Shown: positions 1 to 36,484 of the stretch, one piece after another
How positions within the stretch are numbered: position 1 is the first letter of the stretch
Layout: every line of letters starts with the position of its first letter
UHGV virus genome: UHGV-0182470
Strand: one strand, 5' to 3'
Length of the DNA stretch: 36,779 nucleotides
From: a virus
Program-made: the position numbers and the translations under genes
Notes under the pieces: generated by a model
The model's input: only the letters and a program-made list of their open reading frames with translations
Told to the model about the DNA's origin: nothing
Database searches by the model: none

Positions 1-79
1 AATGTAAAGACTGACTAAGCATGTAGTACCGAGGATGTAGGAATTTCGGACGCGGGTTCAACTCCCGCCAGCTCCACCA
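1..79 (+). ncRNA. ssrA: tmRNA (SsrA) 3' portion, partial at left window edge
   Basis: Positions 1-79 read AATGTAAAGACTGACTAAGCATGTAGTACCGAGGATGTAGGAATTTCGGACGCGGGTTCAACTCCCGCCAGCTCCACCA, which I recognise as the 3' end (T-arm/acceptor, CCA) of enterobacterial tmRNA; 5' part lies outside the window. Confidence 0.85.
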
Positions 80-80
80 A
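35..80. repeat. attL core: 46-bp direct repeat shared with attR
   Basis: Sequence 35-80 is identical to 36439-36484 (ATGTAGGAATTTCGGACGCGGGTTCAACTCCCGCCAGCTCCACCAA); flanks diverge immediately outside. Confidence 0.85.
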
Positions 81-119: not shown

Positions 120-202
120 TTTGGTAGTGGCGGCAAAATGGCGACAGACTTTTGCGTCCATCTTGCCTGTCGCCATCTTGAAATCATGCAAAGAGGTTTC
201 AC

Positions 203-685
203 ATGGAAGAACTTCACTTTGTTTACATCAATGCAAATGGTCGTATCGGTGTTCACTCTATACAGAGCATCAGTTATAGCGAAAATCATATACAGGGCAT
301 TTGTAAGAACACCGATCGAATAAAAACCTTCCGAAAAGACCGCATTCTTAAACAGTACGATTCACCAGAACAAGCCATTCAGGAGTGCGCGTCATTCCTC
401 CCCGAAAACTACTCACATCTCACCAAGCAGTCTGGTCCGAAAAAAAATACATTCGATGTGTGTTTCACCGGATTTAAGAAAGCAGATAAAGAAAGATTGG
501 TTGATAAGGCGAATGAACAAGGATTAACGGTAAGAACCTCTGTAACCCAAAGCCTTCAGATGCTCTGTTGCGGTTACAATGCAGGCCCATCAAAAGTATC
601 GGCAGCCAGGATGAAAGGCACAATCATCATAGATGAGCCTGGCTTTATACATTTTCTTGAAACGGGTGAGATCCCAGATGAATAA
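203..685 (+). CDS. Cargo protein with C-terminal BRCT-like domain (N-terminal region ending in a TFRKDRI motif reminiscent of WYL domains)
   Basis: 160-aa ORF with AAGAGG RBS 6 nt upstream; C-terminal segment VCFTGF...GLTV...GYNAGPSKVSAARMKGTIIIDE resembles the BRCT domain at the C-terminus of NAD-dependent DNA ligase; sits between attL and ogr. Confidence 0.55.
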   Translation: MEELHFVYINANGRIGVHSIQSISYSENHIQGICKNTDRIKTFRKDRILKQYDSPEQAIQECASFLPENYSHLTKQSGPKKNTFDVCFTGFKKADKERLVDKANEQGLTVRTSVTQSLQMLCCGYNAGPSKVSAARMKGTIIIDEPGFIHFLETGEIPDE

Positions 686-711
686 AAACCTGCCGTAGCA
701 GGTTCTCTTTC

Positions 712-930
712 TCAAAAATTCATATGCCCCTGACCACCTGGCAATGGATGTGGAGGAGCAGTAGCAATCAGTGCGGGTGTCACAATAAACCGGACCACTG
801 TTTCATGGGTAACAAAAGTGCTCCCGCAGTTAATATTTTGGCACTGGCAGTAACGCTCTTTGGTGCTTTCTGTTACTTGAAAACTGCTCCTTGTGTGCGC
901 CGCATGACCACACTTCGGACAATTCATCAT
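712..930 (-). CDS. ogr: Ogr-type zinc-finger late gene activator (ORF extends to 975; likely start at the internal Met)
   Basis: Translation MMNCPKCGHAAHTRSS...KERYCQCQNINCGSTF...HPLP matches the C4 zinc-finger pattern of P2 Ogr / 186 B; located next to gene D as in P2. Confidence 0.85.
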   Translation of the reverse strand: MMNCPKCGHAAHTRSSFQVTESTKERYCQCQNINCGSTFVTHETVVRFIVTPALIATAPPHPLPGGQGHMNF

Positions 931-2581: not shown

Positions 2582-5500
2582 GCGTCGTATCCCCCCTGAT
2601 CGCTGTAGTTACTCCTGGCTTTTGCCTTCAGCCTGCGTTCACGTTCATCAAGCTGGCGGGCCACCTCCCGCGCAATATCCTGCGCACTTTGTCCTGGCTG
2701 CGTCTGAATGATGATCTGCGTCGGTGCCTCAATCCGTTGAACGGGCGGCACAGTGGCTGCACGACTCACCATCGCTTCGCCGCCTTTCGAGGGAAGTGCC
2801 AAAGGATGCAACGGTGGAAGCTCTGCAGGCGCGGCAGCAACGCCCATCATTCCGGCAACAACGGCAGCCAGTGAAGCTGTATTTCTCCGGCTGGTCACAT
2901 TTGCCGGGCCGTTAACAATTTCCGGCCCGTTTTCACCGACGATGCCAAACTGCCCGCGCGGGATATAGCCGCCGCTGTCATACATCCCCGCAAAGCCATA
3001 TCCCCATGACGGAAAACCACCCGATGGCATCATCACTTTACCGTCTGCATTCACCGTCGCAGGTTGCTGACGCGTCACGCTTTCCGGCAGTTTCGCCTTT
3101 GCGGCCTCTTTACTGACAATGCCGAGTTTTTCCAGCAACCAGGATACGCCGGATTTCAGGGAGTCCAGCGGATGCATGACCATATTCAGCCCTTCCGCCA
3201 GCGCCTCCCCGAATCGTCGCCCCATTGCCGCTGCGCTCTGCAGTTCGGCAGAAGTCGACTTAACGGGCGTCAGCAAATCAGTAAACCAGCCCCACAGCGC
3301 CTGCACTTTGTCGCCAATCCACTGGAACACAGGCTTAAGCGGTTCGAATGCGGCACTGATGGGTCCTGCCGCCGCTTTGAATCCTTCCACCACGCCACCG
3401 AGAAATGCGGTGATGGGTTGCCAGTATTTCCAGACAACCAGCGCCACGCCCGCCAGTGCAGTAACCACAAGACCTATCGGACTGAGCAGAGCACCTAACA
3501 GACCAGATACGGCATACAGGGCAACGCGCAGCATCGCCAGTGGACCAGATGCCAGTACTCGCAGCACCGTGCCTGCGGCGGCCAGTCCACCGCGCAGTAC
3601 CGCCAGAGGATTCATAAACATCACAGCAGCAGCACGTAAACCGGATAATCCAGACCGGAACAGTGCAACCGGCGCACCTGCTACAGTTTTCAGGACATTC
3701 CCCGTCAGTGATGCCGTGCGACGCAAAGACGACAACGGAGCAGTAAGTAAACCCGCTGCGTTGCCCGATGAAGCAAGCCCGCGTCGCAGCAGTGCCAGTG
3801 GAGCGCCAGCTAACCAGGACAACGCGCTGCTGGTTCGTGTTACTGCTGCGGTAACGGAAGGTAACGTTTTGATACCCAGCACAGAGAATCCCAGACGGAT
3901 GACTGCCAGCGGCCCCAGCACTGCAGCCAGCGCCACCGCTAAGGTGCCGAGGCCTACGGTAACCGCAGCCACAACAGCCGCTACTTTCATCAGTGTGCCT
4001 GTCAGTTCCGGGTTAGCTTCCACCCAGCGGCGCAACGCCCCCGTGATGCTTTTCACCGTGTACAGAATATCCATCAGCGGCTGGCGCAGCGTTTCGCCCA
4101 GGCTGCTGAAGGTGTTCTGCGCTCCGGTTTTGACCAGCAACCACTGAGCAGAAAGTGAGTCTTTGTTGATGTCGGATTCTTTCTGCATGGAACCGAGCGC
4201 ATCATTGCCCGCTGTCAGTTTTAGCTGGCGCTGCAGTTCCGGAAGGTTGTTTGCCAGTTTCGCCGCGTCATCACCAAACTCTTTACCAAACAACATGGTC
4301 ATGGCAGACAGACGCTTGTCCTGCGGCAGTGCGTTCACCTTCTCCAGCACACGCTGGATAGTTCCCATCGCATCCTTCGTCATCTGCTTTTCAATCACTT
4401 CAGGATTGAGTTTCAGCAGATTCATCCCTTCAAAGAAACTCTTGCTTTGCATGGTGGCAATGGACAATTCACGCACCATCGCGTTTGCTGCACTGGCTGC
4501 AACCTCCGGTGCAGCGCCCAGTGTCAGGAAGGTGGAACCCAGCGCCGCCGCTTTACGATAATCCAGACGGTCAGCCACACCGCCCAGACGCTGCATCACA
4601 TCAATGATGTCCGCCCCTTTCGACATGGCGTTATCATCCAGAAAGTTCAGCGCATCACCGAGCTGTTCAATATTGCGGGTTGGTATTTTGTAGAGCTGGG
4701 CGATTTTCCCCAGACTTTCTGACAGTTCATCCGCTGGCAGCTCAAAGGCTGTTGCCGCTTTTGCTGCCGTACTGGCGAAGGCCAGCAGGTCACGTTTCTG
4801 GTCCTCCCAGCTGTCGTCAGGGTTTGCCACATTCATGCGCGCACCACCTTCAACCAGTGCGGCGAAGTCCACAGCACCGTTTTCCATTGGCAGCTGTTCA
4901 CTGGCAGCTTTGATGGCATCCTGCATTTCGTAAAAACGCGCAGTGCGGTTGCCATTATCGTCACGCAGACCATTGACCTGCTTTGCCACACCTTTCATGG
5001 CATCTTCCATGCTGGTATAGCTTTTTACCGCCGCCATCACTGGCGCGCCCATTGCCAGCCCTGCAGCCGTGGTGGTGGCTCCGGCTCCTGCGATGCGATC
5101 GCGCACTTCAAGCCGTCTTGAGTATTGTTCTCTGGCAACGTTCATCCGTGCCTGTTGTTCACCCAGACGTTTAAGTGCTTTTTGCTGGCCCTCCAGTGCC
5201 TGACGAGTTTCTTCGGCATTTTTCTTAAGTTCTCGCTGGGCACTACTGAGTTGTCTGGTATCAATCCCTGATTCTTTAAGTGCCTGACGTTGTCTCTGGA
5301 CCGCCCCCAACAAGCCGTTATAGGTCTGCTGAAGTTCCTGTACTCGTGTTTTGGCCTGACTGAATAACTTTGCTTGCGCGGCGGTTGGCCTGTTAGTGGC
5401 AGCAAATTGTGTGGCGAGTTTTGCCGCCTCTTCGCGGGCTGTGTTCAGGTTGTTGGCTGTTATGGCTAGTTGCGAGCGCGTCTTGCGAAATTCATCAATT

Positions 5501-5655
5501 CTGCCAGCCTGCTTATTCAGTTCTTTGAGGCTGTTTCGGGTATTCTGAATTGCGCCAGCCAGCTCTTTCGAACTGGCCTGTGCAGCACGGAATGGGCGGG
5601 TGAGTTTGTCAACCGCATTAAGAATGACCTGCAGGCGCAGGTTATTATCACTCAT
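2578..5655 (-). CDS. T: Tail tape measure protein
   Basis: 1025-aa ORF, coiled-coil N-terminus, Ala/Gly-rich hydrophobic repeats (LxxxAGxP...) in the middle; position after E/E'. Confidence 0.9.
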   Translation of the reverse strand: MSDNNLRLQVILNAVDKLTRPFRAAQASSKELAGAIQNTRNSLKELNKQAGRIDEFRKTRSQLAITANNLNTAREEAAKLATQFAATNRPTAAQAKLFSQAKTRVQELQQTYNGLLGAVQRQRQALKESGIDTRQLSSAQRELKKNAEETRQALEGQQKALKRLGEQQARMNVAREQYSRRLEVRDRIAGAGATTTAAGLAMGAPVMAAVKSYTSMEDAMKGVAKQVNGLRDDNGNRTARFYEMQDAIKAASEQLPMENGAVDFAALVEGGARMNVANPDDSWEDQKRDLLAFASTAAKAATAFELPADELSESLGKIAQLYKIPTRNIEQLGDALNFLDDNAMSKGADIIDVMQRLGGVADRLDYRKAAALGSTFLTLGAAPEVAASAANAMVRELSIATMQSKSFFEGMNLLKLNPEVIEKQMTKDAMGTIQRVLEKVNALPQDKRLSAMTMLFGKEFGDDAAKLANNLPELQRQLKLTAGNDALGSMQKESDINKDSLSAQWLLVKTGAQNTFSSLGETLRQPLMDILYTVKSITGALRRWVEANPELTGTLMKVAAVVAAVTVGLGTLAVALAAVLGPLAVIRLGFSVLGIKTLPSVTAAVTRTSSALSWLAGAPLALLRRGLASSGNAAGLLTAPLSSLRRTASLTGNVLKTVAGAPVALFRSGLSGLRAAAVMFMNPLAVLRGGLAAAGTVLRVLASGPLAMLRVALYAVSGLLGALLSPIGLVVTALAGVALVVWKYWQPITAFLGGVVEGFKAAAGPISAAFEPLKPVFQWIGDKVQALWGWFTDLLTPVKSTSAELQSAAAMGRRFGEALAEGLNMVMHPLDSLKSGVSWLLEKLGIVSKEAAKAKLPESVTRQQPATVNADGKVMMPSGGFPSWGYGFAGMYDSGGYIPRGQFGIVGENGPEIVNGPANVTSRRNTASLAAVVAGMMGVAAAPAELPPLHPLALPSKGGEAMVSRAATVPPVQRIEAPTQIIIQTQPGQSAQDIAREVARQLDERERRLKAKARSNYSDQGGYDA

Positions 5656-6084
5656 CGTTGGCCCCGCTTCTCTGAATCGCTTTATACCGCCATTCCAGCA
5701 CTTCGGTCAGCGGCATAACGTCAGTAACGGATGGCGGCCAGTGAAAGATGGTGGCGATATCAGCCACCAGATCGTCAACCGTCAGGCTGTCGGTAAACCG
5801 GCAAGCACCGACTTCTTCAACAAAAAAGTGACAACCTCAACCGACATGGCAGTGAGATCTGCCGGGTCCATCTCTGCAATTTCCTGTGCAGTCAGTGCCG
5901 GACTGGAGATGCGGGGGATCACGGTCATCATCGCGTTCACATCCATATCCATAATGGCCTGCAGGCGTGTACCGCGCAGCGCACCGGACTGCGGTTTACG
6001 CAGCACAATTTCGGTGATTTCTGTTTTACCGCGCTTGATGGGGGTATCCAGTTGAATAGTCTTTTCAGTCTGCTTATCGCTCAT
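5649..6084 (-). CDS. E+E': Tail assembly chaperone E+E' (-1 programmed frameshift product)
   Basis: Minus-strand reading ...GTC ACT TTT TTG TTG AAG... (heptamer at 5821-5827 on + coordinates); the -1 frame stays open for ~58 codons (FFVEEVGACRFTDSL...WRYKAIQRSGANDE) and stops at TGA overlapping the T start codon. Confidence 0.8.
5782..6084 (-). CDS. E: Tail assembly chaperone E
   Basis: 100-aa ORF upstream of tape measure; contains slippery heptamer T_TTT_TTG near its 3' end. Confidence 0.85.
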   Translation of the reverse strand: MSDKQTEKTIQLDTPIKRGKTEITEIVLRKPQSGALRGTRLQAIMDMDVNAMMTVIPRISSPALTAQEIAEMDPADLTAMSVEVVTFLLKKSVLAGLPTA

Positions 6085-6138
6085 TTTGCTGTCCTGTAAA
6101 TTGGGTTCTGGCGCGGTATCCCGCGCCGTTCAGATACA

Positions 6139-6654
6139 TCAGAGGCCGAGGGCGTTGCGGTGCGCTTCCATCAGGTCCACACCGTCCACAATTTCCACCA
6201 TGTTGATAAGGTCCACTTCATAGAGCACCTCACCATTTATAGTCAGCTTCGCGTAGCTGTTGGTACTGGTCACTTTGGTGGTGTTGCTTTCGCCCGTCTT
6301 CCACTCGCCGGAATCCACTTCTTTGTGACGTCCACGCACCACAAGCTCCACGGCCTGCACTTCCCCGGTATCGTCACGCTGGATAGAGCCGGTAAAGCGC
6401 AACTGGATACCATCCACCGTGGCTTTGCCCATCTGCTTAAACAGCAGCAGTTCAGTACCACCAATGGAAAATTCCGTATCCAGTGCGCCGTCATCCAGCC
6501 CCAGATCCACATCCACTGCACCCGGCATTCCGCCGCCGCGATACTTCTCATATTTGCGGGTAAATTTCGGCAGCGTCAGCGACTCAACGATCCCCTGCCA
6601 GTTGTTCCCGTCATTAAACAGGTTCAGGTGTTTTAATTTGCGTGGTAAAGCCAT
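6139..6654 (-). CDS. FII: Tail tube protein FII
   Basis: 171-aa ORF; size, position after sheath gene and sequence consistent with P2 gpFII. Confidence 0.9.
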   Translation of the reverse strand: MALPRKLKHLNLFNDGNNWQGIVESLTLPKFTRKYEKYRGGGMPGAVDVDLGLDDGALDTEFSIGGTELLLFKQMGKATVDGIQLRFTGSIQRDDTGEVQAVELVVRGRHKEVDSGEWKTGESNTTKVTSTNSYAKLTINGEVLYEVDLINMVEIVDGVDLMEAHRNALGL

Positions 6655-6663
6655 GTTGTCCCC

Positions 6664-7836
6664 TTACGCGCTGACCTGGCTGGAGAAATTCACCAGGTAC
6701 TGATCGGTGATGCGCTGACGCAGCATCAGGTTTTCAAGTGGCGGCACTGGCGTGTAGTCGTAGTCGATGGTGAGTTTTCCGGCTTTCAGCGTGTCTTTGT
6801 CGTTCACCGACTCATCCAGCCAGCAATCACCACCAATGAGATAGCCCTGACTGACCAGGCTGCGCATTTTGGCGCGGATACCCTCGATAATGTCGCGGGC
6901 CAGCGACGGATTCAGCGGTTTATCCACCGCCCACATGTGCGCTTCTGCCATCGTGTCCGTCAGCACCTGCGCCGTGCGGGTGTAGTTTTCGAAGGCAAAG
7001 AGCGGGTCATCACTCAGGCAGCGGGAACCCCAGAAGCGAAAACCGTCTTTGCGGATAAGGGTGGTGACGTCGTTCTGGTTCAGCAGTCCCGCATCGGTTG
7101 CCGGGTCCTGCAGATCCCAGAACACATCAGCAGAAATTCCGGTGACACCGTTAACGCCCACGTTGGACAGGCTTTTGTGCCATCCGGTCTGCTCGTCAAT
7201 TTTGGCGCGCAGACCAAGCGCACGGGCGGTGGCATAAGCCGTTGCTTCGGCATTCAGCACCGTGTCCCAGCCAGTAAAGTCGGGCCAGATCAGCATTCCT
7301 TCACGCTGACTGAAGTTTTCACGGTAAGTGATTGCTTCCTGCACCGTCTTGCAACCATACGCTGACAGGTAAGCAAATCCACGCAGGCTTTGCGCCACGC
7401 TCAGCAACTCAGTAGCTACCGCCTTCGTGTCGTGACCTGGCACGCCGAGAATGCGCGGTTTAACGCCGAGCTGTGACTGGGCAGATAACAGGGCTTTCAT
7501 GCCTGTTTTTTTACCTTCAGCGGTCACTGCTCCGATGATATTGGTCGTGGTTTCTTCTTCCGTTTCACCCTGCGGCACACGCACAACAACGGTCACGGGT
7601 TTTGCCTGGTCAGCGATGGCATCCAGCGAACGAGCCAGCGTGCCTGACTCACCCGCTTTACCGCTGGCAGTCAGCACATCAGTGATCAGCACGGGTTTAT
7701 TAAGAGGAAACATTTTTGCATCGGCATCATCGCCCGTGCAGACCATACCCACGATGGCGGTGCTCACCGTGGTAATGGATCGGGTGCCTTCGTTGACTTC
7801 AACAACGCGCACCCCGTGGTGGTAATCCTGAGCCAT
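6664..7836 (-). CDS. FI: Tail sheath protein FI
   Basis: 390-aa ORF starting [14 protein letters not shown]..., typical contractile sheath; first gene of F operon. Confidence 0.9.
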
Positions 7837-7978: not shown

Positions 7979-8551
7979 TCAGGGGGATTCATTACTCTTA
8001 TTTGCCGGAAATTTTCTATAAATTGTGGAAACACCCACATCAAAAATCAGTGCAATACGCTGTCTTGATTCTCCGGCCTCGAGTAAGCGTCCAATCTGTG
8101 CCCACTGTTCGGTAGTCAACTTAGGACGGCGTCCACCTACTCTGCCTTTGGCGCGAGCTGCAGCAAGCCCCGCCCTGGTACGTTCAACTATCAGTTCGCG
8201 TTCCATTTCAGCCAGGGCACCCATGACATGAAAAAAGAAACGGCCCATTGGGGTACTGGTATCAATACTGTCAGTCAGGCTTCGGAAATTCACACCTCGC
8301 TGGCGCAACTCTTCTATCAACGTAACAAGATGCCGCATACTGCGCCCCAACCTGTCCAGCTTCCAGACAACCAGCGTGTCTCCTGCCGATAGTGTCCTGA
8401 GCAGTTTTTTCAGCCCCGGTCTGTTGGACTTAGTGCCACTGATTTTGTCCTCAAAAATCCGCTCACATCCCGCGCAGTTCAGTGCATTACGTTGCAAATC
8501 GGTGTTCTGGTCATTTGTTGACACGCGTACATAGCCAATAAGCATGATCAA
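7979..8551 (-). CDS. Serine recombinase, DNA invertase (Hin/Gin/Cin/Pin family)
   Basis: 190-aa ORF MIMLIGYVRVSTNDQNTDLQ...GDTLVVWKLDRLGRS...C-terminal HTH; catalytic Ser motif YVRVST; lies 50 bp from an invertase crossover-type site. Confidence 0.9.
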   Translation of the reverse strand: MIMLIGYVRVSTNDQNTDLQRNALNCAGCERIFEDKISGTKSNRPGLKKLLRTLSAGDTLVVWKLDRLGRSMRHLVTLIEELRQRGVNFRSLTDSIDTSTPMGRFFFHVMGALAEMERELIVERTRAGLAAARAKGRVGGRRPKLTTEQWAQIGRLLEAGESRQRIALIFDVGVSTIYRKFPANKSNESP

Positions 8552-13761: not shown

Positions 13762-13793
13762 TTGACACAAAAGATGTTTATTGACAATATATA
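13762..13793 (+). promoter_or_regulatory. Putative sigma70 promoter of the DUF262 cargo gene
   Basis: TTGACA at 13762-13767 followed ~17-18 bp later by AT-rich -10-like hexamer (CAATAT/AATATA); ATG at 13820 with AAGGAG RBS. Confidence 0.35.
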
Positions 13794-13819
13794 AATTCAA
13801 TCTAACAAGGAGAAAAATT

Positions 13820-15595
13820 ATGCCAAATGAAAATCTTGATATTGACTCAAGGACTACCGAGCAATTATACGAATGGTATTTGCAAGGAAATTTGATAGTC
13901 AATAGACGTTATCAAAGGAAACTTGTATGGTCTCTAGAAGAAAAGACTTCTTTAATATCTTCTATGCTGCAACAATATCCTATTCCGTTATTATTATTTG
14001 TTACCATCAATGAACAAAGAGAAATATTGGATGGAATGCAAAGATTAGAAGCAATTATGAGCTTCATCGAACAGAGATTTTCATTAGATGGACAATATTT
14101 TGATTTGGACTCTATAGCTTTAACAAAACAACTTAAAGATAATGGAACTTTAATTCAGAAAGAACCAATCCTTTCCCGTGATTCTTCAGCAATTATTGCA
14201 CGTTATCGATTTGCAATATCAGAATATAGCTCCACAAATGAAAATATTGACGAAGTATTCAGACGAATAAACTCAAACGGGAAGATTTTATCCAAACAAG
14301 AATTACGTAGTGCAGGAACAGTTAGTAACTTCTCTGAACTGGTCAGATCGATATCAACATCGATCAGAGGTGATACTAGCCATTCTGACATTATGAATCT
14401 CCAGCAAATGCACAAAATTTCAATCAGTAACGATAGATTGGAGTACGGGGTAAATATCGATAACCACTTTTATATAAAACATCATATTTTAACAAGACGA
14501 AGTATTCGTGATTCTGATGACGAGGAATTGATAGCCAATATCCTTGCATATATCAGTCTAGAAGAAAAACCCACATCTGGGTCAACTTCTCTCGACACAT
14601 TCTATGGTCAAGGAAACTCCTCTCATGCTCATGGTGTCAGACAGCAATTAGAGTCTTTCATTCAAACCAATAACGCTGCCACTATTAAGCAGAATTTCAT
14701 AGCTGTATATGAATTAATTACAAGCCTATATGACGGAAAAAATGATACTTTTAGAAGCCATATTTTAGGGGAGGATAATTCATCTCAAGAATGCCCTCGT
14801 TATTATCAAGCTGTGTTTTTGTCTATTTATGAACTTCTTTTCAACCAAAATATGCAATTAATTGATAAAGAAGGTTTATTCTCGCAATTAAAAAACACTG
14901 GCAATACCATAATTATGGTTACCGATGGTGGCCGCTGGGCTGCAAGCACTCGTGAAAAAAGTGTTAATGATCTTGTTGCATTAATAAGTCGCTACTTCCA
15001 ACCTGCTCCTCAAAAGTATGTGAATCATGCTTGGGTAACTGAAATTCGCAATCTATTAACAAATTCTAGAACTGAACAACCAAGTTATGATTTCAAACAG
15101 GGGTTCTTTAATTTATCAGGTAAAAATGAATTTGATGATGAATGTTTAAAAGGAATATTACAAACTTGCGTAGCAATAAATAATATTGGAAAAAGCGCAA
15201 AAGGCTATATTTTAGTTGGTATTGCCGAAAATAAATTAACCGCAGATAGAATTCAACATTTATATGGAGTAAATTCAATTGAGTTCAATGGGTTCTATAT
15301 AAACGGAATTGATCATGAAGCAATGTTAGTCTCTGGTAGCATTGATGGTTACTTTATGTTAATAAAACAAAAAATACAAGGATACAATTTCACTGAAACT
15401 CTAAAACAGCAGATACTTAAGAATATTGAGTTTTGCTCTTACAATGGCTTACACATACTCAAGATAACTATTCAGAGCACAGGTCAAATTTGCGACTTTG
15501 AGAATATGTTTTATATCAGACAAGGCTCATCGACTGATCCAGTTACGGATACACAAAAAATCTCAGCCCTATTTAACTCTTACATGAACAGCTAA
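13820..15595 (+). CDS. DUF262 (ParB/GmrS-like N-terminal domain) protein, candidate defence cargo gene
   Basis: 591 aa from ATG 13820 (AAGGAG RBS; ORF track start 13781 is upstream in frame); N-terminal region ...RRYQRKLVWS...ILDGMQRLEAI matches the DGQQR signature region of DUF262; visibly AT-rich relative to flanking phage genes; opposite strand to S and V. Confidence 0.7.
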   Translation: MPNENLDIDSRTTEQLYEWYLQGNLIVNRRYQRKLVWSLEEKTSLISSMLQQYPIPLLLFVTINEQREILDGMQRLEAIMSFIEQRFSLDGQYFDLDSIALTKQLKDNGTLIQKEPILSRDSSAIIARYRFAISEYSSTNENIDEVFRRINSNGKILSKQELRSAGTVSNFSELVRSISTSIRGDTSHSDIMNLQQMHKISISNDRLEYGVNIDNHFYIKHHILTRRSIRDSDDEELIANILAYISLEEKPTSGSTSLDTFYGQGNSSHAHGVRQQLESFIQTNNAATIKQNFIAVYELITSLYDGKNDTFRSHILGEDNSSQECPRYYQAVFLSIYELLFNQNMQLIDKEGLFSQLKNTGNTIIMVTDGGRWAASTREKSVNDLVALISRYFQPAPQKYVNHAWVTEIRNLLTNSRTEQPSYDFKQGFFNLSGKNEFDDECLKGILQTCVAINNIGKSAKGYILVGIAENKLTADRIQHLYGVNSIEFNGFYINGIDHEAMLVSGSIDGYFMLIKQKIQGYNFTETLKQQILKNIEFCSYNGLHILKITIQSTGQICDFENMFYIRQGSSTDPVTDTQKISALFNSYMNS

Positions 15596-24557: not shown

Positions 24558-25070
24558 ATGTCCATCCAAGAAGTTAACTATCAATGGGCTGTTGCTTTGC
24601 TTACCGCCCAACATACTATTATTCTGGAGCTCAACGCCAGCGAAGCTGATAAAGACACCCCCACTTTAATGGGTGAAGATCAACGGCAAATTGTAGAACG
24701 GCAAATAAAACAACGAAGTGGGCAAAAAACATTTCGCGACCAGCTATTAAAATCAAATCCTACTTGTGCGGTTACGGGCTGTAAGCTTGTTGATATTCTT
24801 GATGCTGCTCACATTAATGTATATCGAAACGATAGTCACAATCATATTAGCAATGGATTATTGCTCAGAAGTGACATTCATACTTTATATGACCTAAATC
24901 TTTGTGCTATAAACCCGATAACAAAAACCATTCATTTTTCAGTGGAAGCCTTGGAAAATGGATATTCGAAATTCGAAGGTTTAAAAATAAATACCCAACA
25001 CAACATAGCAATAAAACCACTATTAACAAGATGGCAGTTATTAAAATCTCAAAACTCTATTGATATATAA
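24558..25070 (+). CDS. HNH endonuclease-domain protein
   Basis: 170 aa; motifs RSGQKTFRDQLL...CAVTGC...LDAAHI...NGLLLRSDIHTLYD fit the HNH (restriction-type) signature; ATG abuts the TAA of the upstream ORF (TAAATG); AT-rich. Confidence 0.7.
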   Translation: MSIQEVNYQWAVALLTAQHTIILELNASEADKDTPTLMGEDQRQIVERQIKQRSGQKTFRDQLLKSNPTCAVTGCKLVDILDAAHINVYRNDSHNHISNGLLLRSDIHTLYDLNLCAINPITKTIHFSVEALENGYSKFEGLKINTQHNIAIKPLLTRWQLLKSQNSIDI

Positions 25071-25126: not shown

Positions 25127-26155
25127 TTAGAGCACTAGGGGATCAGTGACCCATGCTTTATTATGGTTTTCTCGATAACAATCATAAATTAATAAATCCG
25201 TTCTTGTATCCGGTGGAAGTTCAATTTCAGGAATGTAATAACTTGCTGGATTGCTATTATCTAATGAAATTGAAAAGTTTTGATTAACGATCGTTGATAG
25301 AGACGTATTGGCTTCCAATAAGCTAAACGGGCCATATTTTACACAGTACATTACAACACAAGCAGCAACTGCATCCATTACATTTTCTAAAGTGGAAAAG
25401 TGGAATGCTCCTGATCTATCATGTTTAGTTTTATTATATGCATTATACCATGACAAAGATGTTGTAGGGGTACTTGCATTCCACCCATCAAAAGGTTTGA
25501 AATGCCTTAATCCGTCATAATTCAAATATTGAATTTTATATTCAGACAAATAACACTTATCTAATAATTTCACATAATCATTTGTGGAGTATCGACCATT
25601 TGAACGAGATAAATTCGAATTACCAATGATTGACACCCATTGATTTTCAACCTCAGTACAAGCAAGAATTAATAGCTCTCTACATTTATGACTGTAAGAA
25701 ATCAAACCATGGGCACTTGGTTCTACATATAGAAAAATATCATCGAGTTTTTCTATCAAAACTCTTAGAGCTTGCTCTGTTGCTCTTTTTTCAAACTCAT
25801 CGATACCTAATGCTGTTTCTGTATCATTGACATAATATAAGGATGGCCGCCACACTCCCCTAGTTACATGTCCAATTTCATTATCTAAAGGAGATATGTT
25901 CTGAGCCCCAAATACTCTCCGAACCCAATCATTGAGAGTTCCACTTCGTTGCTCAATAACAGTTAACCCAACTGATATTACATTAAATCCCACGTCACGC
26001 CCATACAGATGCACAAAATGACTTGTTGTTTCATAAGCGTAACCGAATTTGTGCTTTTGATGTACTGTTGTTTCAAAATTAGGAATGCGTGTATGAGTGT
26101 TTTCGTACCAGATTCCGTTCATCATCACCTCTAATGAGAGTCGATTATATTTCAA
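25127..26155 (-). CDS. Hypothetical 342-aa AT-rich cargo protein
   Basis: Long uninterrupted ORF on the minus strand in an AT-rich island between Q and the putative cos site; no confident family assignment (contains an RSGAFH, i.e. R-x4-H, motif). Confidence 0.6.
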   Translation of the reverse strand: MKYNRLSLEVMMNGIWYENTHTRIPNFETTVHQKHKFGYAYETTSHFVHLYGRDVGFNVISVGLTVIEQRSGTLNDWVRRVFGAQNISPLDNEIGHVTRGVWRPSLYYVNDTETALGIDEFEKRATEQALRVLIEKLDDIFLYVEPSAHGLISYSHKCRELLILACTEVENQWVSIIGNSNLSRSNGRYSTNDYVKLLDKCYLSEYKIQYLNYDGLRHFKPFDGWNASTPTTSLSWYNAYNKTKHDRSGAFHFSTLENVMDAVAACVVMYCVKYGPFSLLEANTSLSTIVNQNFSISLDNSNPASYYIPEIELPPDTRTDLLIYDCYRENHNKAWVTDPLVL

Positions 26156-26252: not shown

Positions 26253-26583
26253 TGCTCGCTTTATGTAGTGGTTTTCATGCACCTGCATGACATGAGTAAA
26301 AGCCCGCCAGTTCTGGCAGGTGTCTGCAAAAACGATCCTCAATCGATCATGCGATTTCATGCAGCATAGTCATGCACTGCCAAGGGAAGCGTTAATCCGT
26401 ATCTGATAACCGCTTGAAAAACGAAACATACTGGTTTACAACAATAAAAATCCGCTGTGAGCGAAGAGCAGAAGTTACAGCATAAAAAGCAATATGGTTG
26501 TGTACCATAGAGCTAAACATTTAAACAAGTTATGTGCTGTATCGATATACTGTGACTCAATATCTAAAACATGGAGGGTGAAT

Positions 26584-27057
26584 ATGTCTTCTTCTACATC
26601 ACAACTACAGCATGTTACAACATCGACAACAGTAAACTCGTCAAGTTACTCCCCCGTCAAATTGCAAGATCATGAAGCAGCATCGAATTCTGGACCTGGT
26701 GGACATACAATTAGAAGACATGTTGGCAAGGATGCCAATTACCTGATAGATCGATTAGATCGATTTCCTAAACTCTGTGTAGCTTCAACATTTACAAACT
26801 TATCAGTAGCAGAACTATCAGCTACCGAGTGGTTCAATTCATTTCTTATGGAATTTACAGAGTGGTATAAAGATCCTAATCGCACAGAGGTTAGATTTTC
26901 AAAGGAATTAGACATTGAACAGGATGTAGGCACTTACGTTAAACGCGATAATCCAAACAATATATTGACTGCAAAAAGAATTAATTTAGTCATGAAAATT
27001 GAAAAGTTTAACGGAATGCCTCATTTCATCCTCACTGCATATCCTGTTAAGGGGTGA
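26584..27057 (+). CDS. Hypothetical protein, toxin-like (Ser/Thr-rich N-terminal linker + compact C-terminal domain)
   Basis: ATG 26584 with GGAGGG RBS (track ORF starts upstream at 26494); 158 aa; motif GGHTIRRHVGK; translationally coupled to the next gene. Confidence 0.6.
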   Translation: MSSSTSQLQHVTTSTTVNSSSYSPVKLQDHEAASNSGPGGHTIRRHVGKDANYLIDRLDRFPKLCVASTFTNLSVAELSATEWFNSFLMEFTEWYKDPNRTEVRFSKELDIEQDVGTYVKRDNPNNILTAKRINLVMKIEKFNGMPHFILTAYPVKG

Positions 27058-27061
27058 TAAT

Positions 27062-27721
27062 ATGTCAAAAGAATATACTAAACTAGATAATTTTATACGG
27101 TCCTACTTCAATCAAGATACCGTATGCGAACTTGAGTCAGATGATCTTGGAAAGATTATTGATTTATATCTTTCTGATGTTGGTCAGAATGGCGTAAAAG
27201 AACTTCTAATTGATATTTCAAAGTTTATTAATGATAATAAAAATCAAAGCCTTGATAAATATTTTGAGAATAAGTTCAGCTCTTATCTTGACATAACTCC
27301 AGTTGAAAAATTCATCTCACTCTTGAATTCAAAATATCTCGAAAAATATCCTGAGATAAAATCCACTGCCGTGAAACATTTTGTATTTTCTACTACACCA
27401 AAGAGAACACAGCATAAACCAAGAATAATTAAAAGATTTCCTTCAATGGTTCCAGCACTTAGTTTTGAGTTTTCATCAGAACGAATCGCTGATTCCAATG
27501 CTTTGTTTCGAGGAAAAGTTTTTAAGCGTAACAACATTAAGCGCGGAGCCAGAAAACCATATTATATACTGGTAAACATCAAACCAAAACAAGAGGCGGC
27601 TATAAAGGTTTCTTTATCTAAGAGTAAGAGTCGTCAACGTCTTTACGATTCACTTAAAAAATCCATTGAAGCTACAGATATTGTTTTGCAAAATAATAAA
27701 GTCGAAAAAATGAAATCATAA
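27062..27721 (+). CDS. Hypothetical protein, immunity/partner-like, basic C-terminus
   Basis: ATG 27062 with AAGGGG RBS, 4 nt after stop of upstream gene; 220 aa; Lys/Arg-rich C-terminal third. Confidence 0.6.
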   Translation: MSKEYTKLDNFIRSYFNQDTVCELESDDLGKIIDLYLSDVGQNGVKELLIDISKFINDNKNQSLDKYFENKFSSYLDITPVEKFISLLNSKYLEKYPEIKSTAVKHFVFSTTPKRTQHKPRIIKRFPSMVPALSFEFSSERIADSNALFRGKVFKRNNIKRGARKPYYILVNIKPKQEAAIKVSLSKSKSRQRLYDSLKKSIEATDIVLQNNKVEKMKS

Positions 27722-33905: not shown

Positions 33906-34021
33906 AGTGCAGTATCTCTTAGTTTGGTTTCGTTTTATCTTGTTTTATGTGGTTTGGTTTTGCTTTTCAAACCATGAATGGATATTAAGATCACTTTTTA
34001 TATACGTCAAGAGGTTTGATT
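33906..34021. promoter_or_regulatory. Lysis/lysogeny switch region (divergent/face-to-face promoters and operators)
   Basis: 116-bp intergenic region between apl and cI with repeated GTTTGGTTT elements and an inverted GGTTTG...CAAACC pair. Confidence 0.5.
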
Positions 34022-34654
34022 ATGAGTTTAATCAAAGCGGGAAATGATAGTGGTGGGCGCGATGCAATTAACAGGCTTATTAAGGCTTACAACTTCAGCT
34101 CACGACAGCAGCTCTGCGAACATCTGGAAGTATCCAAAAGCACTATGGCTAACAGATACTTAAGGGATAGCTTTCCTGCCGAATGGGTAATTCAATGTGC
34201 CCTTGAAACAGGAGCTTCCCTTCTATGGCTGGCTACTGGTCAAGGAGATATGTATGCGTGTGAGAACGAAGAAACAAATCTCAAAAATGAACCTCCCGTC
34301 ACTGTAAGACCACTTTCTAAGATCGTTGCTCCTAGCATCAAACGTGTTGAACTGAAGAACGGCGAACTGCAGGCAAGTGATGAAATTCTTCTTGATAGCA
34401 GCCTGCTCGATGGTGACTCATCCAACGCTTTATTTGTTAAAACAGCTAATAATAGCTTTGTAGTGGATACGTCCGTTAAACAAGTCAGTAATGGCTTCTG
34501 GTTAGTCGATATGGACGGAGTTAAAAGCATCGTCAAAATTGCGCGCATACCCGGAAACAAAATAGTAGTTAGCCAAGATGACACTTCATTTGAATGTTCT
34601 GTAGATGATGTGGAAGTCGTAGGACGTGCAGTCAAAGTAATCAAGAACCTCTAA
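34022..34654 (+). CDS. cI: CI immunity repressor (186 type)
   Basis: ATG 34022 with AAGAGG RBS (track start 34016 is a TTG); N-terminal HTH region; immediately upstream of int. Confidence 0.8.
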   Translation: MSLIKAGNDSGGRDAINRLIKAYNFSSRQQLCEHLEVSKSTMANRYLRDSFPAEWVIQCALETGASLLWLATGQGDMYACENEETNLKNEPPVTVRPLSKIVAPSIKRVELKNGELQASDEILLDSSLLDGDSSNALFVKTANNSFVVDTSVKQVSNGFWLVDMDGVKSIVKIARIPGNKIVVSQDDTSFECSVDDVEVVGRAVKVIKNL

Positions 34655-34657
34655 CTT

Positions 34658-35674
34658 ATGACCATCAGAAAACAGCCGAACGGAAAATGGTTGTGTGAGT
34701 GCTATCCCAATGGACGCAATGGTAAGCGCGTGCGTAAGCAATTTGCTACCAAAGGCGAAGCCATTGCATTTGAAAGCTTCACAATGGAAGAAGTGAACAA
34801 AAAACCGTGGTTAGGAGAAAAGGATGATCGGCGACACCTATCAGAATTAATTGAGCTTTGGTATTCCCTGTATGGTCAGACACTCGCAGACCCCAAGCGC
34901 CTCATGGCGAAACTTAGAATTATCTGTAATGGTCTAGGCGACCCCATCGCCTCAGAACTGACAGCCGGTGACTTTACGAAATACCGCGAAGCACGGTTAA
35001 AAGGTGAAGTACGAAATGAAGATGGCACGTTTATGTCGCCCGTTAAGCCCCGCACGGTAAACCTTGAACAGCGCAATCTATCATCTGTTTTTGGTACGCT
35101 GAAAAAGCTGGGCCACTGGTCAGCCCCCAACCCGCTTGCTGGGCTGCCAACATTTAAAATTGCTGAGAGTGAATTGGCGTTCCTGACCCCGGAAGAAATT
35201 AAACGTCTGCTGGATGCCTGCGCCGATTCTCAAAGCTCCAGCCTGCTTTTGATTGCAAAAATATGCCTGGCCACCGGCGCACGCTGGAGCGAAGCCGAAA
35301 ACCTGCAGAGTCATCAGGTATCAAAATACCGTATCACTTATACCAAGACCAAAGGCAAGAAAAACCGAACTGTGCCTATTTCTAAGGATTTATATGAAGA
35401 ACTGCCTAAGAATAGGGGGAAGTTATTCACCCCATGCAGAAAAGCCTTTGAGCGTGCAGTAAAGCGGGCTGGTATCGATCTGCCAGAGGGTCAATGTACT
35501 CACGTTCTGCGTCATACATTCGCTAGCCATTTTATGATGAATGGTGGAAACATATTGGTTTTGCGGGATATCCTAGGACATTCAGATATAAAAATGACCA
35601 TGGTCTATGCACACTTCGCCCCAGACCATTTAGAAGATGCCGTAACTAAAAATCCTTTATTTAATTTGAGGTAA
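34658..35674 (+). CDS. int: Tyrosine integrase
   Basis: 338 aa; C-terminal catalytic region HVLRHTFASHFMMNGG...LGHSDIKMTMVYAH with R..H..R..Y signature. Confidence 0.9.
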   Translation: MTIRKQPNGKWLCECYPNGRNGKRVRKQFATKGEAIAFESFTMEEVNKKPWLGEKDDRRHLSELIELWYSLYGQTLADPKRLMAKLRIICNGLGDPIASELTAGDFTKYREARLKGEVRNEDGTFMSPVKPRTVNLEQRNLSSVFGTLKKLGHWSAPNPLAGLPTFKIAESELAFLTPEEIKRLLDACADSQSSSLLLIAKICLATGARWSEAENLQSHQVSKYRITYTKTKGKKNRTVPISKDLYEELPKNRGKLFTPCRKAFERAVKRAGIDLPEGQCTHVLRHTFASHFMMNGGNILVLRDILGHSDIKMTMVYAHFAPDHLEDAVTKNPLFNLR

Positions 35675-35684
35675 GTAGTAATTT

Positions 35685-36353
35685 ATGAATAGCGAACTAG
35701 AGTTACTTATAAAAATATTATTCCCTTCCCTATCTGCCATTATATCCTTATTAGGGCTTAAAACAGGGTGGACTTATAAAAAAGATAAACTATTCACATC
35801 ACGTAAAAACATTAGCGAATTTTCATATCAGATGTATAAAAGCAGTGAAGATCCGACCTTCAAAAAACTGGCGGAAGATTACGGCATTGCTGCATTAACC
35901 AAAGATAACACATTGACAAAAAAACAAAGACTAATATTACTCAACACAACAAACCCCGTTAGCGATATAGATAATTATTCCAAATGTCAAAGTCTAATTT
36001 CCATTACCACCCATAAAGAAATATTCGCATGGAATAAAAAAAGATATAAATACAGCATATATAGAAAATTAATAAAAATCATAACAACTCTAATTTACTT
36101 CATGAGCAGTCTCATCGTAGCACTTCCTTTCAGTTATTCTGTTGTAGTAAGTGCTAAGATGATGGAGAAGATAAACCATCTAACTACTTGGCAATACTTT
36201 GGTTTAAGCAGCTATTTTGTGGTATCGGGAGTAGCAATATGCTTTATCTGCCTAGATAAGCTCTCCAAGATTAAGATCGCCGAGAGATTAATCGTTTCGA
36301 ATAGGCGTTTAGGCGACAAATGCAGTGGCGGCACTTTGGCGGCAGAAAGTTAA
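35685..36353 (+). CDS. AT-rich cargo membrane protein (two predicted TM helices)
   Basis: 222-aa ORF between int and attR; hydrophobic segments IKIITTLIYFMSSLIVALPF and YFGLSSYFVVSGVAICFICL. Confidence 0.6.
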   Translation: MNSELELLIKILFPSLSAIISLLGLKTGWTYKKDKLFTSRKNISEFSYQMYKSSEDPTFKKLAEDYGIAALTKDNTLTKKQRLILLNTTNPVSDIDNYSKCQSLISITTHKEIFAWNKKRYKYSIYRKLIKIITTLIYFMSSLIVALPFSYSVVVSAKMMEKINHLTTWQYFGLSSYFVVSGVAICFICLDKLSKIKIAERLIVSNRRLGDKCSGGTLAAES

Positions 36354-36438: not shown

Positions 36439-36484
36439 ATGTAGGAATTTCGGACGCGGGTTCAACTCCCGCCAGCTCCACCAA
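36439..36484. repeat. attR core: 46-bp direct repeat (displaced ssrA 3' end copy)
   Basis: Identical to 35-80; preceded by non-ssrA sequence, so this is the partial duplicate. Confidence 0.85.

What the first reader, a model, noticed from the sequence alone, without database searches (positions are those of the whole stretch)
203..685. BRCT-domain cargo gene wedged between attL and ogr
In P2-type genomes ogr is essentially the last gene before the attachment site. Here a 160-aa ORF with a good RBS intervenes; its C-terminal half resembles the BRCT domain of NAD-dependent DNA ligases and its N-terminal half ends in a TFRKDRI motif like that closing WYL domains. BRCT domains bind phosphorylated or nicked DNA substrates, so a small phage-borne BRCT protein could be a DNA-repair or defence modulator.
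Basis: inference. Interest (0 to 1): 0.5.

Follow-up and report, generated by a model that had tools for sequence, protein, structure and literature searches.

The report
Prophage WYL–BRCT protein beside attL
The ORF is a real, well-conserved gene for a small two-domain DNA-sensing protein (WYL plus BRCT) that temperate phages carry in or next to their repressor/integrase module, so it is probably made in lysogens to act on DNA ends of competing phages, though its function has never been tested.

Summary
Window 203-685(+) is an intact 160-aa gene with an RBS and its own terminator. It lies between attL (a 46-bp core inside ssrA) and ogr of a P2/186-like prophage.

"Random cargo" is only partly right. 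The gene belongs to a large family (PHROG 2561, misnamed "DNA ligase") with at least 197 clusters at 50% identity. It is under purifying selection. In other prophages it sits directly downstream of the repressor gene, and this holds for three unrelated repressor types. Here it lies just across attP from cI-int, in the same direction.

About 30% of relatives carry transmembrane anchors, and some lie beside Abi or restriction genes. There is no catalytic domain.

My best reading (about 0.4) is a lysogen-expressed exclusion or defence factor that binds ssDNA together with 5'-phosphate ends or nicks. Expression and function are untested. I found no paper on the family in the searched library.

The parts
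35..80 (.). attL core: the 3' end of host ssrA (tmRNA), duplicated at attR 36439-36484
   Evidence: 46-bp perfect direct repeat. ssrA and smpB are annotated upstream in the 98.6%-identical record of phage 500465-1.
88..115 (+). Phage-supplied intrinsic terminator that restores the ssrA terminator; it stands between ssrA (or int, in the circular form) and the WYL-BRCT gene
   Evidence: 12-bp stem followed by a T run. Conserved, with paired changes in the stem, in all ssrA-integrating relatives.
126..145 (+). Conserved direct repeat TGGCGGCA-AAA-TGGCGACA, probably integrase arm-type sites of attP (inference)
   Evidence: It is the only block conserved upstream of the gene in all relatives, including those that integrate at other att sites.
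190..196 (+). Shine-Dalgarno AAAGAGG, 6 nt before the ATG
   Evidence: Sequence. An AAAGG/GAGG motif is kept in relatives.
203..685 (+). WYL-BRCT protein gene (160 aa plus stop)
203..361 (+). WYL domain (residues 1-53, five-stranded Sm/SH3-like barrel) including TFRKDRI at nt 326-346; two helices follow (residues 55-73)
455..664 (+). BRCT domain (residues 85-154) with T89-G90 (nt 467-472) and K131 (nt 593-595)
687..704 (.). Hairpin between the convergent WYL-BRCT and ogr genes (likely a terminator)
   Evidence: Terminator scan.
712..930 (-). ogr (late-gene activator), convergent neighbour
   Evidence: Pfam Ogr_Delta 1.5e-20. 219-nt CDS annotated in phage 500465-1.
34016..35674 (+). cI (34016-34654) and int (34658-35674): the lysogenic operon that points at attP and the WYL-BRCT gene in the circular genome
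   Evidence: Pfam Phage_CI_repr plus Phage_CI_C; Int_N plus Phage_integrase.
36439..36484 (.). attR core

Best explanation
The gene encodes a small non-enzymatic nucleic-acid-binding protein. A WYL domain is the kind of module that senses single-stranded DNA in DriD, PafBC and CapW. It is joined by a flexible linker to an RFC1/LigA-class BRCT domain whose phosphate pocket is intact, the kind that binds 5'-phosphorylated recessed ends and nicks. The gene belongs to the lysogeny (repressor/integrase/attP) module of temperate phages and is most likely made in the lysogen, like lambda rexAB, K139 glo or streptococcal ltp.

I propose that it recognises DNA with a 5'-phosphate end or nick next to single-stranded DNA. 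Examples are the cohesive ends of an incoming phage genome and nicked or gapped replication intermediates. By occupying these it would block end-joining by LigA or further replication, which excludes superinfecting or competing phages. Membrane-anchored relatives would do this at the DNA entry site.

Shown: the gene is real, conserved and under purifying selection; the two folds; the conserved pocket residues; linkage to repressor genes; membrane-anchored relatives; some defence-type neighbourhoods. Inferred: expression in lysogens, the DNA ligands, and the exclusion phenotype.
For: Domains and pockets.

WYL domains bind ssDNA in CapW, DriD and PafBC (PMC11662680, PMC10853764, PMC11804915). 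The RFC1 BRCT domain binds recessed 5'-P DNA (PMC9293004 citing Kobayashi 2006/2010).

Lysogeny-module position:
- 186-type CI -> gene -> Int with gaps of 2-35 nt in L085 and L145.
- Mannheimia PHL101: CI ORF35 -> ORF34, 3-nt gap, RBS inside the end of cI.
- Vibrio PV94 and Burkholderia phages.
- HTH_3 plus Peptidase_S24 repressors upstream, directly in L121 and one small ORF away in L129 and L131, in Pseudomonas prophages.
- cI hits ending just before the gene in L094, L096, L109-L111 and L137.
- In this phage type: cI-int-attP-gene.

Outside prophages the gene is flanked by AbiGi-like and AbiTii genes (L103), McrB_N-HNH (L122) and Mrr_cat plus a methylase (L084).

45 of the 150 best cluster representatives have predicted TM helices outside the module.

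Purifying selection. Low GC (42-43% against 52-59% in the tail genes), typical of accessory genes.

Precedent for exclusion genes inside lysogeny modules: ltp and glo (PMC3952083).
Against: No experiment or paper on this family was found.

The protein has no effector domain and, in this window, no TM segment.

No sigma-70 promoter is detectable in the 87 nt between the ssrA-type terminator and the ATG. Expression in the lysogen would therefore need read-through from ssrA, or from int in the circular form, and is unproven.

PADLOC gives only a domain-level BRCT match to candidate PDC-S48.

Of the CapW ssDNA-contact residues, only the arginines of the FRxDRI motif are recognisable. The RWHVR arginines are not (HIQGIC here), so ssDNA binding is not assured.

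Many non-prophage contexts are uninformative.
Confidence: 0.4

Rival explanations
1. It serves the prophage's own life cycle. It would be an ssDNA (DNA-damage) sensor that modulates CI, Int or excision, for instance by coupling damage to induction or by helping recombination at attP.
For: The gene is always next to cI, int or attP in P2-like phages. Characterised WYL proteins are ssDNA-sensing regulators of damage responses. Here the start codon is only about 55 nt from the conserved putative Int arm repeats.
Against: There is no HTH or WCX domain. The family occurs with three unrelated repressor types, and also outside prophages beside Abi or restriction genes. 30% of relatives are membrane-anchored. 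Close relatives such as Fels-2 manage without it.
Confidence: 0.2
2. It is a DNA-joining or repair helper. It would be a stand-alone BRCT adaptor that brings host LigA or the replisome to phage nicks or cos ends, or protects the phage's own ends. This would resemble the BRCT-bearing B subunit of T5-type split NAD-ligases.
Against: The match to ligase models covers the BRCT part only, with scores far below their cut-offs. E. coli LigA has its own BRCT domain (established knowledge). The gene lies in the lysogenic module, not the early or replication module. No ligase-like gene was noticed in the parts of the window that were annotated; the window was not scanned systematically for one.
Confidence: 0.12
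3. It is a counter-defence decoy. It would soak up ssDNA or 5'-P ends produced on induction or infection, so that host WYL-controlled defences (CapW-CBASS, BrxR-BREX) or end-sensing nucleases are not triggered.
For: CapW senses ssDNA through its WYL domain, and CBASS thereby blocks lambda prophage induction (PMC11662680). A protein made from the lysogenic operon would already be present when induction starts. Similar small BRCT and WYL proteins occur in lytic phages too.
Against: This is purely an analogy. The neighbourhoods beside Abi and restriction genes, and the membrane anchoring of relatives, fit a host-protective role better.
Confidence: 0.1
4. It is a decaying or functionless passenger ORF.
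For: One of 82 copies carries a stop (L049). No promoter was detected.
Against: dN/dS is about 0.05-0.13 among close alleles. The gene keeps its full length from 100% down to about 30% identity across many genera, and pocket residues are 98-100% conserved.
Confidence: 0.03

Closest known systems
wHTH-WYL-WCX regulators (CapW, BrxR, DriD, PafBC)
   Different: There is no DNA-binding wHTH and no WCX dimerisation domain; the WYL domain is fused to a BRCT domain instead. The RWHVR arginines that contact ssDNA in CapW are not conserved. It therefore cannot be a transcription factor of this type.
BRCT domains of RFC1 (p140) and bacterial NAD-dependent ligase LigA
   Same: These are the best profile matches (2.6e-5 and 5.9e-5). 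The T-G ... K phosphate-pocket positions are aligned and invariant. This BRCT class binds 5'-P recessed ends or nicks.
   Different: Here the BRCT domain stands with only a WYL domain; there are no clamp-loader or ligase catalytic modules.
Lysogeny-module exclusion genes: lambda rexAB, K139 glo, S. thermophilus ltp, lactococcal sie2009
   Same: The genomic logic is the same: a non-essential gene co-oriented with, and next to, the repressor and integrase genes. In the known cases it is transcribed in the prophage and blocks other phages (PMC3952083; rexAB and sie2009 from established knowledge).
   Different: There is no sequence or fold relationship. The known examples are membrane or periplasmic proteins, whereas this copy is soluble (30% of relatives are anchored). 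An exclusion phenotype is untested.
PHROG 2561 ('DNA ligase') / NCBI 'BRCT domain-containing protein'
   Same: Full-length match, 2.2e-77, so this is the same family. PGAP labels some E. coli copies 'BRCT domain-containing protein'.
   Different: The PHROG functional label is not supported, because only the BRCT part resembles ligases.
WYL-BRCT fusion listed by Makarova et al. 2014
   Same: That survey mentions BRCT among the domains fused to WYL (PMC4012209).
   Different: It is a one-line mention with no description of family, context or function.

Membership tests
BRCT domain (Pfam PF00533) | Sequence score above Pfam's gathering cut-off | tested here: inconclusive
   The query scores 19.5 bits against a cut-off of 21.3. 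27 of 35 homologues match at E<0.01 and some relatives score well above the cut-off (P0129 46.3 bits, P0132 54.3 bits). The family profile hits RFC1 and LigA BRCT in PDB at 2.6e-5 and 5.9e-5.
BRCT domain (Pfam PF00533) | Beta-alpha-beta-beta-alpha-beta-alpha fold | tested here: met
BRCT domain (Pfam PF00533) | Phosphate-binding pocket (S/T-G after beta1, K at the start of alpha2) | tested here: met
   T89 98%, G90 100%, K131 100% in 235 aligned sequences, aligned to the FTG and GPxK of Rfc1. Actual ligand binding was not tested.
WYL domain (Pfam PF13280) | Sequence score above Pfam's gathering cut-off | tested here: inconclusive
   The query itself gives no hit. Homologues P0097 (25.4 bits) and P0100 (23.1 bits) pass the 21.8 cut-off, and 4 of 35 match at E<0.01.
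WYL domain (Pfam PF13280) | Sm/SH3-like five-stranded barrel superposable on solved WYL domains | tested here: met
WYL domain (Pfam PF13280) | Conserved ssDNA-contact residues (CapW S144, R164, R168, R184) | tested here: inconclusive
   The FRKDRI arginines R44 and R47 are 82% and 91% conserved. The strand equivalent to RWHVR reads HIQGIC, without arginines. No residue-level structural superposition was available.
wHTH-WYL-WCX transcription regulators | N-terminal winged HTH and C-terminal WCX domain | tested here: not met
   The WYL domain starts at residue 3 and is followed by a linker and a BRCT domain.
NAD-dependent DNA ligase LigA (database label 'DNA ligase') | Adenylation, OB, Zn-finger and HhH domains | tested here: not met
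   160 aa. NCBIfam LigA models match only their last ~70-100 positions, at 11-20 bits against cut-offs of 369-1051.
DEDDh exonuclease (Cartapus label 'putative exonuclease') | DEDDh exonuclease domain | tested here: not met
   NF004719 matches only profile positions 229-307 of 331 (its BRCT tail), 26 bits against a cut-off of 389.
T5-type split ligase, subunit B | A partner catalytic subunit A encoded in the same genome | not tested
Lysogeny-module superinfection-exclusion genes (functional class) | Located in the lysogeny module and co-oriented with repressor and integrase | tested here: met
   Directly after the repressor gene in relatives. In this phage: cI-int-attP-gene in the circular form.
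Lysogeny-module superinfection-exclusion genes (functional class) | Transcribed in the prophage state | not testable with these tools
   No promoter found. RNA-seq or 5'-RACE of a lysogen is needed.
Lysogeny-module superinfection-exclusion genes (functional class) | Confers resistance to other phages | not testable with these tools
   Needs plaque assays.
PADLOC candidate system PDC-S48 | Full-length match to the model | tested here: not met
   Only residues 83-153 match model positions 335-406 of 411 (1.8e-7), which is the shared BRCT domain.

The most novel reading that the evidence does not exclude
WYL-BRCT proteins, soluble or membrane-anchored, are a widespread and unrecognised class of single-protein prophage immunity factors. 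They would read a DNA structure, ssDNA next to a 5'-phosphate end or nick (for example cohesive ends), and block circularisation or replication of incoming phages by steric capping and competition with LigA, without any enzymatic effector. A further twist specific to this phage type: the gene sits across attP, so integration places it directly downstream of the very strongly transcribed host ssrA gene. Its expression could therefore depend on integration.
Probability: 0.25. Interest if true: 0.7.

Novelty: new variant of a known kind. Interest (0 to 1): 0.5.

Why it matters
If the protein is a lysogen-expressed exclusion factor, it would add an effector-less, DNA-structure-reading mechanism to prophage-encoded immunity.

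It would also be the first function assigned to a WYL domain that is not attached to a transcription factor, helicase or nuclease, and to a free bacterial or phage BRCT domain.

The family is common. It is in 176 of 5,426 complete E. coli genomes and in P2-like prophages of at least a dozen genera. It is mis-annotated as a ligase or exonuclease, so correcting the label has practical value.

The repressor-adjacent position is a simple rule for finding further lysogen-expressed accessory genes.

Tried and rejected
1. A two-gene system with the neighbouring membrane protein orf222 (35685-36353). The two genes are adjacent across attP, and 37%-identical homologues follow the WYL-BRCT gene in L094 and L096. 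However, orf222 is in only 29 E. coli genomes against 176, and it is absent from the phage collection, including phages 500465-1, Cartapus and MLG42 that carry the WYL-BRCT gene. I rejected it as an obligate partner.
2. An own sigma-70 promoter or an Ogr-type late promoter upstream. The scan found nothing, the alignment of relatives shows no conserved -35/-10, and no TGT-N12-ACA motif was found by eye.
3. Extra domains in longer relatives as a clue to an effector. Pfam found nothing beyond BRCT and WYL. The extensions are TM helices with low-complexity linkers, or second WYL-BRCT copies.
4. A PDB sequence search with the N-domain profile gave only a marginal hit (8bnv, E 0.5, over the FRxDRI motif).
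5. Literature searches (BRCT with WYL, phage, anti-phage, P2-like, or defense system; PHL101 with ligase) found nothing on the family beyond one line in PMC4012209.
6. The AFDB50 fold library was unavailable.
7. ARAGORN finds no tmRNA in the window because only the last ~80 nt of ssrA are included.

Full report
**What is there**

The window begins inside the host tmRNA gene ssrA. A 46-bp stretch (35-80) is repeated exactly at 36439-36484. This bounds a ~36.4-kb P2/186-like prophage. It is 98.6% identical over its first kilobase to Escherichia phage 500465-1 (Wadgaonvirus) and 97.7% identical to phage Cartapus. In the 500465-1 record, smpB and ssrA lie just upstream.

The order after the core is as follows:
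- A hairpin plus T-run (88-115) that restores the ssrA terminator.
- A conserved direct repeat TGGCGGCA-AAA-TGGCGACA (126-145).
- A Shine-Dalgarno AAAGAGG (190-196).
- The 160-codon ORF 203-685.
- A second hairpin (687-704).
- ogr on the other strand (712-930; Pfam Ogr_Delta 1.5e-20), followed by tail genes D and U.

Fels-2, which uses the same att site, has ogr 139 nt from its att end and nothing in between.

**Is it a real gene?**

Yes.
- There are 122 homologues at E<1e-3, almost all 155-185 aa long. They come from Escherichia, Citrobacter, Klebsiella, Enterobacter, Pantoea, Pectobacterium, Yersinia, Serratia, Xenorhabdus and beyond.
- A profile search of 1.84 billion cluster representatives gives 2,617 hits, 197 of them below 1e-30.
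- Close alleles that carry amino-acid changes differ mostly at synonymous sites (dN/dS about 0.05-0.13), and only one of 82 copies has a stop.
- The gene is in 176 of 5,426 complete E. coli genomes.
- GC content is 42-43%, against 52-59% in the adjacent tail genes. That is usual for accessory genes.

**What the protein is**

AlphaFold2 with a 35-sequence alignment gives a confident model (pLDDT 91.8). The low pTM (0.52) fits two domains on a flexible linker.

*BRCT domain, residues 85-154.*
- The family profile hits the BRCT domains of Rfc1 (2.6e-5) and LigA (5.9e-5).
- Pfam BRCT is just under its cut-off for this sequence (19.5 against 21.3 bits). It matches 27 of 35 homologues.
- T89 and G90 after strand 1, and K131 at the start of helix 2, are 98%, 100% and 100% conserved in 235 aligned sequences. 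They align with the FTG and GPxK of Rfc1. In BRCT domains these positions form the phosphate pocket (established knowledge).
- The isolated RFC1 BRCT region binds recessed 5'-phosphate DNA tightly (PMC9293004, citing Kobayashi 2006/2010).

*WYL domain, residues 3-52.*
- These residues form a five-stranded barrel. Modelled alone it reaches pLDDT 93.
- Two homologues pass Pfam's WYL cut-off.
T42 is 95% conserved, R44 82% and R47 91%.
- WYL domains of CapW, DriD and PafBC bind ssDNA.
- The arginines of CapW's RWHVR strand are not conserved here, so the ligand is plausible but not established.

There is no catalytic domain. Matches to LigA and to a DEDDh exonuclease model cover only their BRCT tails and fall far below their cut-offs. 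The database names 'DNA ligase' (PHROG 2561, 500465-1, PHL101) and 'putative exonuclease' (Cartapus) are therefore wrong.

**Where the family lives**

This is the most informative result.

*Same arrangement as the window.* All 80 relatives in viral contigs, from 100% down to 59% identity, have the gene convergent with ogr, and all but two have gpD beyond it. The gene diverges together with ogr and gpD. In the circular genome of Yersinia phage MLG42 the order is cI-int-[attP]-gene, then ogr facing it. The window has the same order with one extra ORF after int.

*Directly after the repressor in more distant P2-like prophages.*
- L085: CI 5411-5998, gene 6001-6486, Int 6501-7529.
- Xenorhabdus L145: CI, gene, Int.
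- Serratia L086.
- Mannheimia PHL101: CI ORF35, then ORF34 after a 3-nt gap.
- Vibrio PV94.
- Burkholderia phages: HTH, hydrolase, gene, then D facing it.
- tblastn shows cI hits ending just before the gene in L094, L096, L109-L111 and L137.

*Pseudomonas prophages.* The nearest annotated upstream gene is an HTH_3 plus Peptidase_S24 (LexA-like) repressor. It is directly upstream in L121 and separated by one small ORF in L129 and L131.

The gene therefore accompanies three unrelated repressor types and is always co-directional with them. This is the position of lambda rexAB, K139 glo and streptococcal ltp, which are expressed in lysogens and exclude other phages (PMC3952083; rexAB from established knowledge).

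*Outside recognisable prophages.* Some copies lie between AbiGi-like and AbiTii genes (L103), after a McrB_N-HNH gene (L122), or next to Mrr_cat and a methylase on an integrative element (L084). Others are in uninformative neighbourhoods.

*Architectures.* Of the 150 best cluster representatives, 86 are soluble stand-alone proteins. 45 have predicted transmembrane helices outside the module, mostly N-terminal followed by a low-complexity linker. Six have tandem WYL-BRCT copies.

*Mosaic boundary in E. coli.* About 1,300 genomes carry a closely related gpD. Homology breaks exactly at the gpD stop. Only 185 genomes have this ogr allele, and 176 have the gene. So att-gene-ogr, together with int in the circular form, is one mosaic module.

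**Expression**

This is the weak point. I found no sigma-70 promoter in the 87 nt between the ssrA-type terminator and the ATG. Relatives conserve only the direct repeat, which is probably a pair of Int arm sites, and the RBS.

In repressor-adjacent relatives the gene can simply ride on the repressor transcript. Here it would need read-through of the terminator, from ssrA in the prophage or from cI-int in the circular form. This is inference.

It does raise an interesting possibility. Integration places the gene behind one of the strongest host promoters. The same orientation is seen behind a tRNA-Met gene in L075 and behind ssrA in L090.

**Mechanism**

The main model (confidence about 0.4) is a lysogen-expressed, effector-less DNA-structure binder. 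The WYL domain would hold ssDNA and the BRCT domain a 5'-phosphate end or nick. It would occupy cohesive ends or nicked and gapped intermediates of incoming phages, and so prevent LigA-dependent circularisation or replication. Anchored relatives would act at the membrane entry site.

The rivals are as follows:
- A damage sensor that modulates the prophage's own CI or Int (0.2). The lack of an HTH, the three different repressor partners, the non-prophage copies and the membrane anchors argue against it.
- A ligation or repair helper, like the BRCT-bearing B subunit of T5-type split ligases (0.12). The position in the lysogenic module and the fact that E. coli LigA has its own BRCT domain argue against it, and I noticed no ligase-like gene in the annotated parts of the window.
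- An ssDNA or end decoy that stops CapW- or BrxR-controlled defences from firing on induction (0.1). This rests on analogy only.
- A functionless passenger (0.03). Purifying selection contradicts it.

**Known or new?**

The family exists in PHROGs (2.2e-77 to phrog_2561) and in RefSeq as 'BRCT domain-containing protein'. Makarova et al. 2014 list BRCT among the fusion partners of WYL (PMC4012209).

I found no functional or structural study of the family. It fails the membership tests for ligase, exonuclease, wHTH-WYL-WCX regulators and PADLOC PDC-S48. It is best described as an uncharacterised variant within the known class of lysogeny-module accessory genes.

**Verdict**

Interest is moderate (0.5). 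The anatomy is clean, the family is large and mis-annotated, and the context gives a sharp hypothesis that is cheap to test. Nothing yet shows an unusual mechanism.

Noticed in passing
window 35685-36353 (+): A 222-aa ORF with three predicted TM helices and no Pfam match lies between int and attR. It is therefore adjacent to the WYL-BRCT gene across attP in the circular genome. It is present in only 29 of 5,426 E. coli genomes and absent from the phage collection. Homologues at 37% identity directly follow the WYL-BRCT gene in L094 and L096. The int-attP gap looks like a second variable cargo site.
   Followed up: partly
window 13781-15595 (+): A 604-aa protein with GmrSD_N and Schlafen AlbA_2 domains. 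PADLOC gives NsnA 2.9e-23 and PD-T4-2_A 1.3e-17. It is a likely anti-phage defence gene, on the opposite strand to the surrounding tail and baseplate genes.
   Followed up: partly
window 26494-27721 (+): A CdiA-CT RNase A-like toxin domain protein (26494-27057) overlaps a CdiI_2 immunity-like protein (26999-27721). This is a toxin/immunity pair in the accessory region beyond the portal/terminase genes. An HNH_2 protein (24558-25070) and an unannotated 342-aa ORF (25127-26155, minus strand) are nearby.
   Followed up: partly
window 7979-8551 (-): A resolvase/invertase gene (Resolvase plus HTH_7, 2.8e-53) lies next to the tail-fibre region. It suggests an invertible host-range switch.
   Followed up: no
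window 158-165 and 173-180: An 8-bp direct repeat CCATCTTG, 15 bp apart, lies just upstream of the WYL-BRCT RBS. It is present only in the E. coli version of this region, not in the 72%-identity relatives. Its function is unknown.
   Followed up: no
L076 843-2096 (-): In a Pantoea-type relative, a YcaO cyclodehydratase gene (Pfam 2.6e-32) is inserted between the WYL-BRCT gene and ogr. L078-L080 also have about 1 kb inserted there. The interval can therefore take further cargo.
   Followed up: partly
window ~999-1001: Homology to about 1,100 other E. coli P2-like prophages stops exactly at the stop codon of gene D. The att-WYL/BRCT-ogr segment is a separate mosaic module.
   Followed up: partly
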